From positions 759-64,758 of the IMG/VR virus record IMGVR_UViG_3300042691_024284: a DNA stretch of 64,000 bases; one strand, written 5' to 3'. The notes beneath the pieces are model-generated. The model did not search any database. It worked only from the letters and a program-made list of their open reading frames with translations, and was not told the DNA's origin. The DNA is from a virus (taxonomy: Duplodnaviria; Caudoviricetes). The position numbers and the translations under genes are program-made. Shown here piece after piece: positions 12,926 through 51,906 of the stretch (within the stretch, counting starts at the first letter, position 1; the number at the start of each line of letters is the position of its first letter).

Positions 12926-14155
12926 TTAATATCCTTCTGTCCAATAAAGGAGTACGGCTCCGTCGCCGCCTTTGCCGCTATTTATTGATGCTGAACTATC
13001 ACTTCGTTGACCAGCACCGCCGCCACCGCCATTCCCACCGGGTCCCCCGAACGGTGTCGAGCTTGAAACTTGAGCGCCGCCACCGCCACCGCCAAAACCA
13101 CCCGGACCACCAAATGTTTGAGCGTTACTAGTATTAGCGCCGCCGCCACCACCACCAAAACCGCCTGGGCCTCCAAATGCAAAATTGCTGCTGCTTTGTG
13201 CCCCGCCTCCGCCGCCGCCAAAACCACCAGAACCGCCGTTAGAATCAAACGATGTGCTTGGTCCTCCGCCGCCACCACCTCCACACAATGCCCAATACGC
13301 AAGGTAAGGAGATGCAAGACTTAACCCTCCTTGCGTACTAGTTGCTACAGGGACGCTTTGACCGCCGCTAGTTCCCACAAAATTTGTTGTTACTCCGCCT
13401 CCTGGTCCACCACCATTTCGACCATTGCCATCGCTTGCTGATCCACCACCACCGCCCGCACTCGAAGCAGATCCATTTTTTAACCCGCCTCCACCTGAAC
13501 CGCTTGGCCCTTGAGGCCCAAAACCGCCGCTACCACCAAAACCACCCCCACCCGTTCCGTTTTGGCTAGTTGAAGTAGATCCTGCGGGTCCGCCATTTCC
13601 CCCATTACCATAAATAGACCCCGCTCCTCCGCCGCCAGTACCTCTGATATCTGAACCAGAGCTGCTTGAATACCCACCGTAACCGCCAGTAGCGGTATAG
13701 GCTTGCCGAAGCCCTCCAGATGCTGTGCCTGTACCGGGACTTCCGGGTGAAGTACTGTTAGTTATTGACCCACCGCCGCCGCCGGTAGAAGTTAAGAGAG
13801 TGCCAAATGATGATGTTCCGCCAGAAGCTCCAGAAGATTGAGTGCTAACTCGTGCTGCTCCTCCAGCGCCAACAGTAATTGTCGGCAACACCTGCCCTGG
13901 AACTACATCAATAATGCCTTGAGCGTAACCACCGCCATCACCCCCGCGAGCATATTGACCAGAATAACTACTACCAGCACCGCCAGATCCACCAGCACCC
14001 CAAACGCAAACCATAATTTGATACACGTTTGCTGGAACAACAAAGTCGTTATACGTACCCGCAATAACATACGGGCGGCAATTAGTCCAAGCAGCAGGCG
14101 CTACACGGGTTGCATAGTTAGGCGGCAACCCAAAGCCGTACATTCCCTTGTTCAT
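12926..14155 (-). CDS. Glycine-rich fibre protein
   Basis: VWGAGGSGG, ITVGAGG, repeated GGFGGGGGG, C-terminal GGDGAVLLYW. Confidence 0.7.
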   Translation of the reverse strand: MNKGMYGFGLPPNYATRVAPAAWTNCRPYVIAGTYNDFVVPANVYQIMVCVWGAGGSGGAGSSYSGQYARGGDGGGYAQGIIDVVPGQVLPTITVGAGGAARVSTQSSGASGGTSSFGTLLTSTGGGGGSITNSTSPGSPGTGTASGGLRQAYTATGGYGGYSSSSGSDIRGTGGGGAGSIYGNGGNGGPAGSTSTSQNGTGGGGFGGSGGFGPQGPSGSGGGGLKNGSASSAGGGGGSASDGNGRNGGGPGGGVTTNFVGTSGGQSVPVATSTQGGLSLASPYLAYWALCGGGGGGGPSTSFDSNGGSGGFGGGGGGAQSSSNFAFGGPGGFGGGGGGANTSNAQTFGGPGGFGGGGGGAQVSSSTPFGGPGGNGGGGGAGQRSDSSASINSGKGGDGAVLLYWTEGY

Positions 14156-37741: not shown

Positions 37742-37773
37742 ATGGCCGAAACCCCGGCGACGGGGTCTGATGC
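37722..37773 (+). ncRNA. Type I hammerhead ribozyme HH3
   Basis: Core CTGACGA (variable position 7 = C); stems intact. Confidence 0.92.
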
Positions 37774-37796
37774 ATATAACACGGAGAAAACACACC

Positions 37797-38588
37797 ATGA
37801 CAACAGAAAACGCACAATGGGCAGCGCTGCTGTCCGACGCTGTCAACAAACCCGGCATTCTGTCGAGCGCCTACTCGGCATTCCATAATTACAGCATCGG
37901 GAATCAGATGCTGGCTTGGGGTCAGCTACACCAGCGAGGAATTCCGCTCGGGCCAATTGCCACATTCAAAGACTGGCAAAAACTCGGCCGGCAAGTGAAA
38001 AAAGGCGAAAAGGCCATTTCTCTTGTCATGCCAGTGACAGTGAACAAAAAAGACGAGACCGGCGAAAAGACGGGCGACTCGTTTACATGGTTTGCGCTCA
38101 AACCCCGCTGGTTTGTGCTCAGCCAGACAGACGGCACTGACTACGTACACGAGGCCAAGACGCCAGACTGGGACCCTGCGCTGGCACTGGCAGCGCTCGA
38201 CATTCAGGAAATTCCATTCGAGAGCGCCGACGGCAATTGTCAGGGCTATGCATCATCGCGGCAGATTGCAGTTAATCCAATTGCTGCACTGCCGCATAAA
38301 ACGCGATTCCATGAGCTAGCGCACGTCGTGCTCGGCCACACTGCCGAGGGCACGATGCAAGACGACGAGCGCACGCCGCGGGACATTCGCGAAGTCGAGG
38401 CAGAGTGCGTCGCCTACATTTGTGTGTCCCTGCTGGGCTTGTCCGGACAGCAAGAGTCGCGCGGGTATATCCAGCACTGGCTAGCTGGCGCCGAGATCGG
38501 CGACAAATCAGCGCAGAAAATATTCGCCGCCGCGGACAAGATTCTGAAAGCTGGCAAAAACCACCCTGAAAAAACCAGTACAGTGTAA
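37797..38588 (+). CDS. ArdC-like antirestriction protein (ssDNA-binding N-domain plus HExxH domain)
   Basis: HNYS.GNQ.L, ATF..W..LGRQVKKGEKAI, FHELAH and E.EAE.VAY motifs. Confidence 0.8.
   Translation: MTTENAQWAALLSDAVNKPGILSSAYSAFHNYSIGNQMLAWGQLHQRGIPLGPIATFKDWQKLGRQVKKGEKAISLVMPVTVNKKDETGEKTGDSFTWFALKPRWFVLSQTDGTDYVHEAKTPDWDPALALAALDIQEIPFESADGNCQGYASSRQIAVNPIAALPHKTRFHELAHVVLGHTAEGTMQDDERTPRDIREVEAECVAYICVSLLGLSGQQESRGYIQHWLAGAEIGDKSAQKIFAAADKILKAGKNHPEKTSTV
38563..38585 (+). promoter_or_regulatory. Early promoter-like repeat, copy 3
   Basis: -10-like TACAGT about 11 nt before the structured RNA. Confidence 0.65.
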
Positions 38589-42242: not shown

Positions 42243-42830
42243 ATGGAGCGTACAGATTTGAAAAGAGATAAGACCGCGCTGTCTGACTATATCCGGGTGC
42301 TTTACAGGCACACGGTGCTGCCAGTACAGGAAGAAGAGCGGCTATCGAAGATGATACAGGCCGGAGACAACGCCGCATTGGAAAAGCTAGTGCGGCACAA
42401 TCTCCGGTTTGTCGTTTCGGTGGTCAAAGAAATGCCAATCTGGCAAAACGGCTCGGTGCCGTTCGAGGACATCGTTGCTATCGGTAACGAGTCGCTGCTG
42501 AAAGCAGCCCGCAAGTGGGTGCCAAAAAATGGGGCTCGGTTTGCCACGTACGCCAAGCCATTCATTATCAAGGGAATCAGGAGGGCTCTTGATAATGAGT
42601 GGTCAATGATCCGCGTGCCGGTGAACATCCTCGAAGAGATCCGCCGCATGAAGTATCTCGAGCGGGTTTTGTCGCAAGAGTTAAAACGGGACCCGACAGC
42701 CAGGGAGATTGCAGACCGGATGAAAGTGCACGAAAGCAGGATCACGGAGCTGCAAAATCTCCTGACCCTGGAGCCGGTGTCGCTTGAGGCCTACAACCAA
42801 GAGAAATTCCACGAGGAGAGCGAAGAATGA
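42243..42830 (+). CDS. Sigma70-family factor with regions 1.2, 2 and 3 but no region 4
   Basis: EE..L...IQAGD.AA..KLV.HNLRFVVSV, G.RFATYA...I, IRVP and R.PT..EIA; ends shortly after PVSLE. Confidence 0.88.
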   Translation: MERTDLKRDKTALSDYIRVLYRHTVLPVQEEERLSKMIQAGDNAALEKLVRHNLRFVVSVVKEMPIWQNGSVPFEDIVAIGNESLLKAARKWVPKNGARFATYAKPFIIKGIRRALDNEWSMIRVPVNILEEIRRMKYLERVLSQELKRDPTAREIADRMKVHESRITELQNLLTLEPVSLEAYNQEKFHEESEE

Positions 42831-50013: not shown

Positions 50014-50928
50014 ATGTTATAAAATATAAAAAGAATGCTGTAGCCCCTCGCTTGTCCGACGAAGAGCCGGATCTTATGGAGCAGGAGGATGTTGAGGGGA
50101 TAACAATAACGCAAGGGGACGGGTGGCTGCCATGGACTCACGACGACTTAATTGATATACGTCGCGTCATCGACGAACGTATGCCAATTAAGCAACGCGA
50201 GATCATGGAGGCGTTTCTTGTTGGTAACACCGCAGCAGATTTAGGTGTCACGGAAAAGTATTGGCGCTACCATTTTAAACGCGCGGTGGAGTTTATAAAA
50301 AAGGAACTCGGGGTATGAAACATTACGGAACATTGATACAGCTAGAAACGACGCTTATAGATTTAGATCTGTTTGTTTCTACTATGCGCACTCTTGTCGG
50401 GGGCGTTGAAGAAGTCAACAGAAAAGATATAACAAACATGATGTATTTTATGTTAGACCGCGTTGAGAACATCCAACAGCGCAGCCAAGAAACTTTTCAA
50501 ATACTTTTTGATGAGATAAAAAATGAAAAACCAGAAAAAAAGCCCGTTCGCAAAGCCAGATAGATTTGACCTTGAGCAAGCCCTTTTGGCTCTGTGGGGC
50601 ACCGCCGATGATTTGATGTTGTTTTACGAGCACTACTACACGCACCACGAGTCCATGTCAGTGGATGATGTGGCCAACGCGTTGTTGGGTTTGCACCAGC
50701 TTACCCACATGCGCGCACAAAAAGCCTTTAACATTTTTGAAAGTCTTGTACATGAAAATCCCAAAAAATCTTCTAACCCCGTTTAAAAACCCTTTTGTCG
50801 AAGCTAAACGCCAGGAGCTGGCCATAGCTATGACTAAAAAGATGATCAACGAGGCCATCAAAGACGGCAAAGGCCTAGCAAAAGAGCGTGATGCAATGAA
50901 GGGCCAAAAACCTAAAGATTCTGCATAA
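50010..50928 (+). other. Four small ORFs (50010-50318, 50315-50563, 50523-50786, about 50752-50928); the first may end in an HTH
   Basis: Overlapping plus-strand ORFs. Confidence 0.55.
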
Positions 50929-50932
50929 GTAG
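50922..50932 (+). promoter_or_regulatory. Phage-specific promoter motif TGCATAAGTAG
   Basis: Repeated motif. Confidence 0.7.
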
Positions 50933-51005
50933 GTGTAGGCACGTCGGGAGACGTCCCGCAGGCCGGGTGTAAGCCCCGGCACCTATTAAATTAAGTGAGG
51001 AAGCT

Positions 51006-51140
51006 ATGAAAAAAGTATTAGCAGCTGTCATGTCAGGCCTTTTTGCTCTGACCGCCGTCCCCGCTCTTGCAGCTGACAAAAAGGCAGACAAGCCGGCCGA
51101 GAAAAAAGCGGCCGACAAGAAGGCAGAGAAAAAGAAATAA
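51006..51140 (+). CDS. 44-aa secreted Lys/Ala-rich peptide
   Basis: MKKVLAAVMSGLFALTAVPALA-ADKKADKPAEKKAADKKAEKKK; Sec signal with A-x-A site; RBS GAGG. Confidence 0.7.
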   Translation: MKKVLAAVMSGLFALTAVPALAADKKADKPAEKKAADKKAEKKK

Positions 51141-51221
51141 GGGGTTGGAATAGTTTCGACGTGGGCCAAGGCCTAAGCGGCAACCTTGCGGACCTGGGTG
51201 CGATTCCCAGCAACTCCACCA
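51141..51221 (+). ncRNA. Minimal tmRNA-like RNA (tRNA-like domain only)
   Basis: GGGGTTG/CAACTCC-ACCA with G3.U70; TTTCGAC loop; GAC linker; T-arm CTGGG-TGCGATT-CCCAG. Confidence 0.8.
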
Positions 51222-51260
51222 ATACGAAAATGTCTGTACTTATTAAAAAGGTCCTACAAA

Positions 51261-51449
51261 ATGGAAGACTTTAAATGCCTACCCAAGATGGCAACCGGCG
51301 GCTCAGCCAAGCCGGGGCTGTATGCCAACATCCACGCCAAGCGCGAGCGAATCGAGCGCGGCTCTGGTGAGAAAATGCGCAAGCCCGGGTCCGAGGGCGC
51401 GCCTACAGCTAAGGCATTCAGGGAGTCAGCCAAGACGGCCAAAAAATAA
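51261..51449 (+). CDS. Small basic virion-type protein
   Basis: MEDFK..KMATGG..PGLYANIHAKRERI..GSGEKMRKPG. Confidence 0.7.
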   Translation: MEDFKCLPKMATGGSAKPGLYANIHAKRERIERGSGEKMRKPGSEGAPTAKAFRESAKTAKK

Positions 51450-51451
51450 AT

Positions 51452-51841
51452 ATGGCGAAATCGAAGCACGAATTTAAACCCGAGATGTGCGACACGCTCA
51501 TCGAGATGGGTAAATCCGGAGCATCACAAAAGATGATGTGGTCCGCGCTCGGCATCTCGGCCGGCGTGGCCGACACATGGAAAAAGAAGTACCCCGAGTT
51601 TGCTGATTCACTTGGTGTGGCGCTGGTCCACAGTCAAGCCTACTGGGAACGCGAAATGTTGGCCAACGTTGGCAACAAGGCGTTTAACTCGCGCATCGCA
51701 GAGATTGCCCTGCGTGGCCAGTTCCCGCAGGACTACAAAGAGACACGAGATCAAAAGCTAGAAGTCAAAGCAGATGTGGTAGTTGACTTTTCTGGTGCTG
51801 TCAATGACCTGATCAAAAGCCTGAAAGCAGCAAAAGAATAG
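51452..51841 (+). CDS. Putative terminase small subunit
   Basis: F.PEMC...I..G..G.S, HTH, W...YPEF..S and AYWE pattern. Confidence 0.65.
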   Translation: MAKSKHEFKPEMCDTLIEMGKSGASQKMMWSALGISAGVADTWKKKYPEFADSLGVALVHSQAYWEREMLANVGNKAFNSRIAEIALRGQFPQDYKETRDQKLEVKADVVVDFSGAVNDLIKSLKAAKE

Positions 51842-51870
51842 CGTACCCAAAAAGGGCACGGTTGTAACCA

Positions 51871-51896
51871 AAAAGGGCACTTCCAAGTGCCCTTTT
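51871..51896 (+). terminator. Hairpin AAAAGGGCAC-TTCCAA-GTGCCCTTTT
   Basis: Perfect stem with U-tract, overlapping the next promoter. Confidence 0.6.
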
Positions 51897-51906
51897 GCAT
51901 TAGTGG
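51896..51906 (+). promoter_or_regulatory. Phage-specific promoter motif TGCATTAGTGG
   Basis: Repeated motif. Confidence 0.7.

What the first reader, a model, noticed from the sequence alone, without database searches (positions are those of the whole stretch)
51141..51221. 81-nt tmRNA reduced to its tRNA-like domain
Seen: acceptor stem with G3.U70 and encoded ACCA, an unpaired D-loop analogue ending UUUCGA, helix CGUGG/UUGCG, the GAC linker and a T-arm. Only 21 nt replace the pseudoknots and tag ORF. Known: these are the AlaRS and SmpB determinants of tmRNA, and tag-less tmRNAs are known from some mitochondria. Inference: an alanylatable SmpB/EF-Tu decoy or tag-free ribosome rescue RNA that protects phage proteins from SsrA tagging. 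This could matter if ribozyme or toxin cleavage generates non-stop mRNAs.
Basis: partly seen in the sequence, partly recalled or inferred. Interest (0 to 1): 0.85.

Follow-up and report, generated by a model that had tools for sequence, protein, structure and literature searches.

The report
Phage tmRNA reduced to tRNA-like domain
A lytic-looking freshwater phage carries an 81-base gene for a transfer-messenger RNA that has kept only its tRNA-like half; the same kind of RNA turns up in many other phages, has one published precedent, and probably interferes with the host's rescue-and-tagging system for stalled ribosomes.

Summary
Rfam's tmRNA model matches window 51141-51221 (+) end to end at 53.3 bits (cut-off 47), with 19 nt in place of 312 model positions.

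The element is under selection:
- It sits at the same site in 22 related phage contigs, in five sequence types that differ by compensatory changes.
- It is 96-100% identical where the neighbouring gene is 73-91% identical.
- Over 38 such RNAs, 95.9% of cells pair, against 74.4% in shuffles.

The complete 64.7-kb phage has no integrase and no SmpB, so this is not an attachment site. No relative carries a full-length tmRNA.

The kind is already in print. Mycobacteriophage DS6A has a 'TLD only' tmRNA, and the cited literature says a similar molecule strongly inhibits tmRNA. New here is the breadth:
- at least 149 viral contigs, 103 unique sequences and 61 clusters;
- unannotated copies in the cultured phages Jojan60, LuckySocke and GiJojo.

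The most likely function is an alanine-charged RNA that binds SmpB and competes with host tmRNA, suppressing SsrA tagging. That is inferred, not shown.

Verdict: new member of a known kind, moderate interest.

The parts
51141..51221 (+). Whole gene of the tRNA-like-domain-only tmRNA (81 nt)
   Evidence: RF00023 at 53.3 bits, E 3.8e-18, model 1-374. My own model R1 gives 75.6 bits. An 83-nt contig in a metatranscriptome run covers 51141-51222 with 0 differences; this is only a weak hint.
51141..51147 (+). Acceptor stem, 5' strand (GGGGUUG), pairing with 51211-51217; the third pair is G.U
   Evidence: Pairs 5-7 covary in 38 sequences (GC/UA/CG/AU types). G3:U and G4:C are kept in 38 of 38 although the search pattern left the 3' partners free. 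U at that place in 103 of 103 unique sequences.
51148..51160 (+). D-loop analogue GAAUAGUUUC followed by GAC. By alignment it holds the SmpB-contacting nucleotides (E. coli U17, C18, G19).
   Evidence: Rfam alignment. The SmpB contacts are named in PMC8363625 (passages). Position 12 (A) goes with T-loop position 2 (G): A-G 16, G-U 14, G-C 8 of 38, with no exception.
51160..51165 (+). Helix P2a, 5' strand (CGUGGG), pairing with 51185-51190 (CCUUGCG region)
   Evidence: 6 of the 7 pairs of this helix change on both sides across 38 sequences; 92.5% of cells are paired.
51166..51184 (+). 19-nt central loop (CCAAGGCCUAAGCGGCAAC region) standing where the pseudoknots, tag reading frame and helix 5 would be
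   Evidence: Rfam shows 19 nt for 312 model positions. The loop is identical in three lineage variants whose neighbouring gene is only 73-91% identical.
51185..51193 (+). P2a 3' strand plus the GGAC junction
   Evidence: The A of GGAC corresponds by alignment to E. coli A334, part of the SmpB Trp122 pocket (PMC8363625, passages).
51194..51210 (+). T-arm (CUGGG/CCCAG) with T-loop UGCGAUU
   Evidence: 100% of cells paired; the two free pairs covary (GC/AU/CG/UA types). The T-loop has G where tRNAs and most tmRNAs have U; this goes with A12.
51211..51221 (+). Acceptor 3' strand CAACUCC and encoded ACCA
   Evidence: CCA is encoded in 60 of 103 unique relatives.
51006..51140 (+). 44-aa ORF (signal-peptide-like N-terminus, Lys-rich tail) whose TAA stop abuts G1 of the RNA gene
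   Evidence: Present in 3 of 5 lineage variants examined. No PHROG family. Its link to the RNA is positional only.
50929..51000 (+). Conserved structured intergenic block upstream (candidate promoter, terminator or RNA element of the same transcription unit)
   Evidence: The core motif is kept in all 5 lineage variants. MFE -30.1 kcal/mol, z = -2.4, 4 of 200 shuffles fold as well. Function unknown.

Best explanation
This is a functional phage gene for a tmRNA that has kept only the tRNA-like domain: acceptor stem, D-loop analogue, helix P2a and T-arm. It has lost the pseudoknots and the tag reading frame.

Proposed mechanism, all of it inferred:
1. The RNA is transcribed with the phage's replication-module genes.
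2. Host tRNA-processing enzymes release it (RNase P at G1).
3. Host AlaRS charges it with alanine through the G3.U pair.
4. It binds host SmpB and EF-Tu.
5. It competes with the host's full-length tmRNA, for SmpB and at the empty A site of stalled ribosomes.

It carries no resume codon or tag, so the net effect is that proteins made from broken or processed messages during infection are not SsrA-tagged for proteolysis. Host trans-translation is blocked or short-circuited. Whether the ribosome is then released (by ArfA/ArfB, or by drop-off and peptidyl-tRNA hydrolase) or stays blocked remains open.
For: **Shown here**
- Identity as a tmRNA tRNA-like domain: RF00023 at 53.3 bits, E 3.8e-18.
- Structure under selection: in 38 such RNAs 95.9% of cells pair, against 74.4% in shuffles (0 of 500 shuffles reach it) and at most 61% in slid controls. 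11 of 19 pairs change on both sides.
- Conservation in the lineage: the same syntenic slot is occupied in 22 contigs (window plus 14; plus 7). The RNA is 96-100% identical where the adjacent DUF2800 gene is 73-91% identical and the 100-nt flanks 52-79%.
- The alanine identity pair is never lost. U opposite G3 occurs in 103 of 103 unique sequences although the pattern left it free, while pairs 5-7 vary freely. This argues that charging matters, which a plain protein sponge would not need.
- A tertiary D-loop/T-loop pairing appears to be kept: A-G 16, G-U 14, G-C 8 of 38.
- In other phages the same kind of RNA sits in tRNA arrays on the same strand (17 of 149 loci within 300 nt; arrays of 10-28 tRNAs in L015, L025, L031, L042). 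It is therefore very probably made and processed like a tRNA.
- Weak expression hint: contigs from RNA libraries of two studies cover 50954-51361 only, within the 50600-51900 stretch laid. One 83-nt contig equals 51141-51222.

**From papers (passages read)**
[quoted passage not shown] - A truncated tmRNA with SmpB and EF-Tu was crystallised on the ribosome (PMC8363625).
Against: - Nothing here shows charging, SmpB binding, ribosome entry or any effect on tagging.
- The host is unknown, so fit to a host SmpB or AlaRS cannot be checked.
- The SmpB-contacting nucleotides were fixed by my search patterns, so their conservation in the census is not independent. They are, however, also present in the three isolates found by BLAST/Rfam.
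- The cited inhibition did not need alanylation. The invariant G.U could instead be inherited from tmRNA ancestors, or serve another ligand.
- The RNA-library evidence comes from contigs only. The 83-nt contig could end where strains diverge, not at RNA ends.
- No promoter-like or terminator-like site flanks the gene on its strand.
- The phage encodes no release factor, ArfB-like protein or peptidyl-tRNA hydrolase that would complete a rescue pathway.
- Some phages are reported to need trans-translation, so a benefit from blocking it is not self-evident (recalled, from no call).
Confidence: 0.55

Rival explanations
1. Productive tag-free rescue. The alanyl-RNA.SmpB complex frees ribosomes stalled on the many cleaved or processed phage and host messages, adds only alanine, and the chain is then released by host factors. 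The benefit to the phage would be more free ribosomes and intact proteins; inhibition of the host system would not be the point.
For: The structural evidence is the same as for the best explanation. G3.U is invariant in 103 of 103. Peptidyl transfer to a TLD-only RNA works in vitro (PMC3895274, passage). CDS-less tmRNAs persist in organelles together with SmpB (PMC11915505, passage). In 12 of 79 unique cases the upstream gene's TAG stop shares its G with G1 of the RNA, so maturation of the RNA would leave that message without a stop codon.
Against: SmpB is needed one-to-one and the phage brings none, so total rescue capacity cannot rise. No release factor or hydrolase is encoded. The only cited in vivo result is inhibition. 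The overlap of stop codon and G1 is also what compact phage gene packing gives, and the upstream genes are unrelated to one another.
Confidence: 0.2
2. A role outside translation rescue. Examples: a tRNA-shaped processing signal (RNase P site) that punctuates the polycistronic transcript, or a decoy for a host nuclease or sensor that acts on tRNA-like RNAs.
For: The gene has no promoter or terminator of its own and directly abuts an upstream ORF. A tRNA-Thr gene occupies the equivalent slot in 6 of 65 more distant relatives. Pistol ribozymes and an RNA ligase gene lie near such RNAs in other phages.
Against: A mere processing signal would not need the tmRNA-specific D-loop analogue, the GAC/GGA junction, P2a, or the invariant G3.U and ACCA. 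Any tRNA would do. The central loop is also conserved.
Confidence: 0.15
3. A passive remnant: an attachment site (attP) for integration into the host ssrA gene, a piece of host ssrA picked up by faulty excision and recently deleted inside, or a decayed tRNA-Ala.
For: Many phages and islands integrate into ssrA and carry its 3' end (PMC10865867 and PMC9004378, passages). tRNA-Ala also has G3:U70.
Against: - There is no tyrosine or serine recombinase in the complete genome.
- Both halves of the domain are present, not only the 3' end.
- Compensatory changes and 96-100% conservation occur across lineage variants.
- 0 of 65 related loci hold a full-length tmRNA (ARAGORN).
- Only 3 true cases were found in one genome each of 185,579 bacterial and archaeal species.
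- tmRNA is the best-scoring family of its clan, and ARAGORN calls no tRNA here.
Confidence: 0.04

Closest known systems
'TLD only' / CDS-less tmRNA of Mycobacterium phage DS6A (tmRNA Website; Hudson, Lau and Williams 2014, PMC4131195; PMC11915505)
   Same: Phage-encoded. Complete tRNA-like domain with a short internal loop, and no pseudoknots or tag frame. About the same length: 83 nt at JN698994 28478-28560 against 81 nt here. It also lies in an intergenic gap just before replication genes and is unannotated in the record. The same functional idea is in print: inhibition of tmRNA, perhaps by titrating SmpB.
   Different: DS6A scores 43.2 bits, below the Rfam cut-off; this one scores 53.3. Different phage type and host world (actinobacterial phage against an uncultured freshwater phage with distant Caulobacter-phage kinship). 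The sequence differs outside the universally conserved motifs. This one has the A12/G T-loop variant.
Full-length phage tmRNAs (mycobacteriophages Bxz1, Cali, Catera and others; Bacillus phage G; two-piece ssrA of phage Melnitz; permuted tmRNA of Caulobacter phage CcrBL9)
   Same: A phage-borne ssrA homologue with the same tRNA-like domain (PMC4131195, PMC9004378, passages; RF04321 hit in CcrBL9).
   Different: Those keep the tag reading frame and pseudoknots, or are two-piece, and can in principle tag proteins. This one cannot.
CDS-less tmRNAs of organelles
   Same: Reduced to the tRNA-like domain, with function thought to depend on SmpB.
   Different: Those are the organelle's only tmRNA, in a reduced genome. 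Here the RNA is an extra copy brought by a virus into a cell that has its own full tmRNA, so competition is the expected effect, not replacement.
Laboratory TLD constructs used for SmpB/EF-Tu/ribosome structures and kinetics (as cited in PMC3895274 and PMC8363625)
   Same: The same parts list. They show that such a molecule can bind SmpB and EF-Tu, enter the A site and accept the peptide.
   Different: Engineered, not natural; there are no in vivo data from infection.

Membership tests
tmRNA (Rfam RF00023), by homology of the tRNA-like domain | Score above the curated gathering threshold, with both ends of the model matched | tested here: met
   53.3 bits against 47; model 1-374; E 3.8e-18
tmRNA (Rfam RF00023), by homology of the tRNA-like domain | 7-bp acceptor stem with G3.U70, discriminator A and CCA | tested here: met
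   Seen in the sequence. G.U kept in 38 of 38 and 103 of 103 relatives.
tmRNA (Rfam RF00023), by homology of the tRNA-like domain | D-loop analogue ending UUCGAC, GAC/GGA junction, helix P2a and a T-arm with a 7-nt loop | tested here: met
   Rfam alignment; covariation in P2a and the T-arm. The T-loop has G at its second position, an unusual variant that goes with A12.
Functional transfer-MESSENGER RNA | Resume codon and tag reading frame ending in a stop codon | tested here: not met
   Only 19 nt lie between the P2a strands. ARAGORN finds no tag peptide.
Functional transfer-MESSENGER RNA | Pseudoknots PK1-PK4 and helix 5 | tested here: not met
   312 model positions are absent.
Functional transfer-MESSENGER RNA | Alanylation by AlaRS and binding of SmpB and EF-Tu | not testable with these tools
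Phage TLD-only (CDS-less) tmRNA, DS6A type | Phage-encoded, complete tRNA-like domain, internal region of a few tens of nt, no tag frame | tested here: met
   Virus record with direct terminal repeats, completeness listed as 100. Architecture. DS6A counterpart located for comparison.
Phage TLD-only (CDS-less) tmRNA, DS6A type | Inhibits host tmRNA function when expressed | not testable with these tools
   Known only from citations of Mao et al. 2009, a paper not held.
Permuted (two-piece) tmRNA | Acceptor 3' piece upstream of the 5' piece, with a coding piece | tested here: not met
   RF04321 reaches only 29.7 bits against 47, on a partial model range that reuses the T-arm and a GGGG inside the next ORF.
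attP for integration into ssrA | Integrase gene in the element; only the 3' part of the host gene carried | tested here: not met
   No PF00589 or PF00239 match in the complete genome. Both halves of the domain are present.
tRNA-Ala (intact or decayed) | Anticodon arm, or tRNA as the best-scoring family | tested here: not met
   No ARAGORN tRNA here. tmRNA is the best of clan CL00001.

The most novel reading that the evidence does not exclude
TLD-only tmRNAs may not be a curiosity of one mycobacteriophage. They may be a large, old class of RNA-based host-takeover factors spread across unrelated phages: at least 61 sequence clusters, hosts from Actinobacteria to Proteobacteria, some inside tRNA arrays. 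Under this reading they switch off or rewire bacterial trans-translation during infection. In some phages the RNA's own RNase P maturation removes the upstream gene's stop codon, coupling creation and resolution of a non-stop message. The strictly conserved central loop of the window's lineage would then be a second, still unknown binding surface.
Probability: 0.35. Interest if true: 0.8.

Novelty: new member of a known kind. Interest (0 to 1): 0.55.

Why it matters
Trans-translation is the main ribosome-rescue and quality-control pathway of bacteria, and it is an antibiotic target. A natural 70-97-nt RNA that viruses use to block or redirect it would matter in three ways:
- It would be a new type of RNA-only host-takeover tool.
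- It would be a ready-made inhibitor scaffold.
- It would be a probe for what happens when a ribosome accepts alanine from a tmRNA that carries no message.

- The class is much larger than the single published phage case.
- It is missed by ARAGORN-based phage annotation.
- It exists in cultured, tractable phage-host pairs (Stenotrophomonas virus Jojan60; Streptomyces phages LuckySocke and GiJojo), where the function can be tested directly.

Tried and rejected
**Leads that went nowhere**
- Thermodynamics. The single-sequence fold is no better than shuffles (z = -0.31) and says nothing either way.
- Own promoter or terminator. None on the + strand near the gene.
- attP reading. No integrase or resolvase found. 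Rejected.
- Phage-encoded partners. No SmpB, no RF-1/ArfB domain and no peptidyl-tRNA hydrolase in the genome.
- Full-length precursor in relatives. 0 of 65 DUF2800-linked loci have a tmRNA call by ARAGORN. 17 of 65 have the short form: 10 by pattern, and 7 of the 55 searched with model R1. Some loci have little upstream DNA, so absence is not shown for all. The nearest TerL relatives, MW202545 and Caulobacter phage GB2A, have no RF00023 match.
- Host identification.
  - TerL points only distantly to Caulobacter phages (44% identity).
  - A Myxococcales MAG has a full tmRNA with the same A12 / G-type T-loop combination, plus an unrelated short form.
  - The combination was found in 1 of 61 genomes sampled from that phylum, the MAG itself.
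  - The host remains unknown.
- Ribozymes in the window. None at E <= 0.05.
- A conserved protein partner encoded just upstream of such RNAs. The 8 upstream ORFs tested are unrelated to one another (HTH proteins, TerL, methyltransferase-like, or no family), and none is SmpB.
- RNA libraries. One of the four runs laid no contig at all (X17). Cover elsewhere on the stretch was absent, which proves nothing with contigs.
- Papers read in passages that turned out not to bear on the question: AcrIIIA1 (PMC11662646), CoCoNuT (PMC11090510) and tRNA-dependent lysogeny (PMC10865867; background on attP only).
- Search for a published census of short phage tmRNAs. Searches found only the DS6A remarks and the Melnitz paper's count of ARAGORN-detectable phage tmRNAs. 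Mao et al. 2009 is not held, so its experiment is known to me only through two citing papers.

**Caveats on the census**
- Both patterns fix GGGG, TTCGAC, GGAC, three T-arm pairs and CCA or CC-A. Variants without these are missed; LuckySocke and DS6A are examples.
- 2 of the 5 genome hits are true permuted tmRNAs of Microvirga (L058 was scanned; L059 has the same 91 nt).
- 10 of 103 unique sequences have fewer than 7 acceptor pairs and may be false.
- My first tally left out 32 loci by mistake. One search replaces it.

Full report
**What is there.** The window is bases 759-64758 of a 64,758-bp virus record with direct terminal repeats, whose completeness is listed as 100. At 51141-51221 (+) Rfam's tmRNA model RF00023 matches from its first to its last position: 53.3 bits against a gathering score of 47, E 3.8e-18 for the whole window. 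312 model positions are replaced by 19 nt. In the sequence one reads:
- a 7-bp acceptor stem whose third pair is G.U;
- a 10-nt D-loop analogue followed by GAC;
- a 6-bp helix P2a (CGUGGG with CCUUGCG);
- a 19-nt loop;
- the GGAC junction;
- a 5-bp T-arm with loop UGCGAUU;
- the acceptor 3' strand and an encoded ACCA.

ARAGORN does not report it, and the fold energy of the single sequence is unremarkable.

**Setting.** Structural genes fill the minus strand up to about 35 kb: terminase large subunit, portal, tail fibres. The plus strand from 36 to 58.6 kb is a replication and early module. In order it holds:
- an ArdC-like protein and a sigma factor;
- a primase/D5 helicase and an SNF2 helicase;
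- four small ORFs;
- the RNA gene;
- a small conserved protein (phrog_16028) and a 129-aa HTH protein;
- a DUF2800 nuclease, an Enc34-type SSB, a ribonucleotide reductase and DNA polymerase A.

The genome has no tyrosine or serine recombinase, no SmpB, no RF-1/ArfB domain and no peptidyl-tRNA hydrolase. No promoter-like or terminator-like site flanks the gene on its strand, so it is probably co-transcribed and cut out by tRNA-processing enzymes. That step is inferred.

**Is it selected?** Fourteen other viral contigs share the gene order SNF2 helicase, small ORFs, RNA, phrog_16028, 129-aa protein, DUF2800. Seven more distant ones (DUF2800 65% identical) carry an 81-nt version at the same place, found with my own covariance model at 53.9 bits.
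- The five sequence types differ by compensatory changes. Acceptor pairs 5-6 are UU/AA, UC/GA, CC/GG or UA/UA. The T-arm is CUGGG/CCCAG, CCGGG/CCCGG or CACGG/CCGUG.
- Against the window, the RNA is 100%, 96.3% and 97.5% identical in three variants whose DUF2800 gene is 90.8%, 76.9% and 72.7% identical at the nucleotide level. Their 100-nt flanks are 52-79% identical. The central loop does not change at all.
- None of the 65 DUF2800-linked loci has a full-length tmRNA by ARAGORN. Six have a tRNA-Thr in the equivalent slot.

The element is therefore not a recent internal deletion, and it is not drifting.

**A wider class.** I scanned IMG/VR with a pattern built from the element: GGGG, 8 free bases, G, 1 free base, TTCGAC, 15-45 free bases, GGAC, then T-arm and acceptor with free variable positions, then CCACCA. 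It matched 56 viral contigs. Together I hold 149 loci:
- 103 unique sequences of 69-97 nt, in 61 clusters at 85% identity;
- 93 of 103 have all 7 acceptor pairs;
- 103 of 103 have U opposite G3, a position the patterns left free;
- 100 of 103 have at least 4 of the first 5 P2a pairs;
- 60 of 103 encode CCA.

On an alignment of 38 distinct sequences, 95.9% of cells pair. Shuffles give 74.4% (0 of 500 reach the observed value) and slid controls at most 61%. The covariation score is 0.570 against at most 0.115, and 11 of 19 pairs change on both sides. Two of the 38 are the Microvirga false positives mentioned below.

Position 12 of the D-loop analogue and the second T-loop base go together without exception in that alignment: A-G 16, G-U 14, G-C 8. 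In the larger set every G at that T-loop position has A as partner (32 of 32). This is the place of the tRNA D-loop/T-loop tertiary pair, so the L-shape seems to be maintained. Relatedness of the sequences inflates such counts.

In 17 of 149 loci a tRNA gene lies within 300 nt, always on the same strand. In L015, L025, L031 and L042 the RNA sits at the edge of, or inside, arrays of 10-28 tRNA genes.

The same pattern found only 5 places in one genome each of 185,579 bacterial and archaeal species. Two of them are genuine permuted tmRNAs of Microvirga. The class is therefore essentially viral.

**Cultured carriers.** BLAST against 50,697 phage records, followed by Rfam, found unannotated copies in three isolates:
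- Streptomyces phage LuckySocke: 57.1 bits, between tRNA-Val and tRNA-Ser, with an RNA ligase gene nearby.
- Its relative GiJojo, where the match lies under an annotated 'hypothetical protein'.
- Stenotrophomonas virus Jojan60: 61.8 bits, after four tRNAs and just before the primase gene.

In the passages returned for 'tmRNA' and 'tRNA', the GiJojo genome announcement lists 29 tRNAs and names tmRNA only in the title of the ARAGORN reference.

**What is known.**
- Hudson, Lau and Williams 2014 (PMC4131195, passages) list 'Mycobacterium phage DS6A (TLD only)'. They write that a similar molecule, chargeable or not, strongly inhibits tmRNA, perhaps by titrating SmpB, citing Mao et al. 2009.
- The 2025 tmRNA database paper (PMC11915505, passages) repeats this and adds CDS-less plastid genes.
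- I located the DS6A element at JN698994 28478-28560: 83 nt, 43.2 bits (below the cut-off), unannotated, between gp33 and a DNA polymerase III gene.
- Other papers (passages) say that a TLD-only RNA accepts the peptide on stalled ribosomes in vitro, and that a truncated tmRNA with SmpB and EF-Tu was crystallised on the ribosome. They name the SmpB contacts, which by alignment are present here.
- Seven full-text searches found no census of such RNAs in phages. Supplements were closed and Mao et al. is not held.

**How it most likely works.** Shown: it is a conserved, structured, phage-borne tRNA-like domain of tmRNA with the alanine identity pair and no messenger part. Inferred: it is processed like a tRNA, charged by AlaRS and bound by host SmpB and EF-Tu, and it then competes with host tmRNA.

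The G.U pair is never lost although neighbouring pairs change freely. I therefore favour a charged RNA that reaches the ribosome over a passive SmpB sponge. The phage brings no SmpB, so the RNA cannot add rescue capacity. It can only change the outcome, from tagging to no tagging. Whether ribosomes are then freed or jammed cannot be decided here. I give this reading 0.55, productive tag-free rescue 0.2, a role outside translation rescue 0.15, and a passive remnant 0.04.

**Expression.** Four metatranscriptome runs from two studies were laid on 50600-51900; all four are held as contigs.
- Three of them have contigs there, and only between 50954 and 51361.
- One 83-nt contig equals 51141-51222 with no difference.
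- One 210-nt contig from a related strain runs from a different upstream sequence through the RNA gene to 51292.

This fits an abundant transcript and perhaps a discrete small RNA. However, contigs can break where strains diverge, and DNA can contaminate RNA libraries, so it is only a weak hint.

**Verdict.** This is a new member of a known kind. What the session adds is the unexpectedly wide spread of the kind, tractable cultured examples, and comparative evidence for selection on the charging determinant and on the central loop. Interest 0.55.

Noticed in passing
window 13634-13725 (-): ARAGORN calls a tRNA-Ser with anticodon ACT inside ORF 12926-14155 (tail-fibre-assembly-like). Rfam gives no tRNA match in the window at E <= 0.05, so it is probably a false call.
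   Followed up: partly
window 50929-51000 (+): Structured intergenic block directly after the stop of ORF 50665-50928. MFE -30.1 kcal/mol, z = -2.4. The core motif GTAGGCACGTCG(G/T)GAGACG is kept in all 5 lineage variants examined, even where the small ORF is missing. A 48-nt adapter-flanked fragment, 50954-51001, occurs in one RNA library. It could be a promoter, terminator or RNA element of the unit that holds the RNA gene.
   Followed up: partly
window 51006-51140 (+): 44-aa ORF with a signal-peptide-like start and a Lys-rich tail. Its TAA stop directly abuts G1 of the RNA gene. Present in 3 of 5 lineage variants. No PHROG family.
   Followed up: partly
L005, L006, L007, L012, L027, L036, L046, L089, L091, L104, L138, L141 (5' end of the short tmRNA): In 12 of 79 unique cases the upstream gene ends in a TAG whose G is G1 of the RNA, so RNase P cutting would leave that message without a stop codon. 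In all, 19 of 79 have an ORF of at least 35 aa ending within -6..+3 nt, against 55 of 1580 random positions. The upstream genes are unrelated to one another (HTH proteins, a terminase large subunit, a methyltransferase-like protein). Compact gene packing is the trivial explanation.
   Followed up: partly
L022 6093-6154 (-), L044 11838-11899 (-), L029 5916-6012 (-): Pistol ribozymes (RF02679, 50.7-51.9 bits against 34.5). They lie about 100 nt upstream of the short tmRNA in L022 and L044, and 2.2 kb upstream in L029. ARAGORN's 324-nt 'tmRNA' call in L022 and L044 spans this region and looks spurious.
   Followed up: no
L037 4865-4961 (-) and four similar sequences: 97-nt versions carry a central insert with four copies of GTCAC, which looks like a repeated binding site.
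   Followed up: no
L060/G001 (Saccharibacteria MAG), L061/G002 (Achromobacter MAG), L062 and L066/G003 (Myxococcales MAG): In the first two MAGs the short form is the only RF00023 match over the cut-off. The contigs may be phage contigs, or the MAGs incomplete. The third MAG has a 357-nt tmRNA plus an unrelated 84-nt short form. Its full tmRNA has the same A12 / G-type T-loop combination as the window's lineage.
   Followed up: partly
L201, L204, L206, L209, L210, L211 (upstream of the DUF2800 gene): A tRNA-Thr(TGT) gene occupies the slot that holds the short tmRNA in the window's lineage.
   Followed up: no
L190 5082-5142 (+): DUF2815 RNA motif (RF03084, 67.9 bits) downstream of the nuclease gene in a relative. 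It is not found in the window itself at the gathering threshold.
   Followed up: no
window 37770-38588 (+) and 42243-42830 (+): An ArdC-like anti-restriction / metallopeptidase protein and a phage sigma factor lie in the early module.
   Followed up: no
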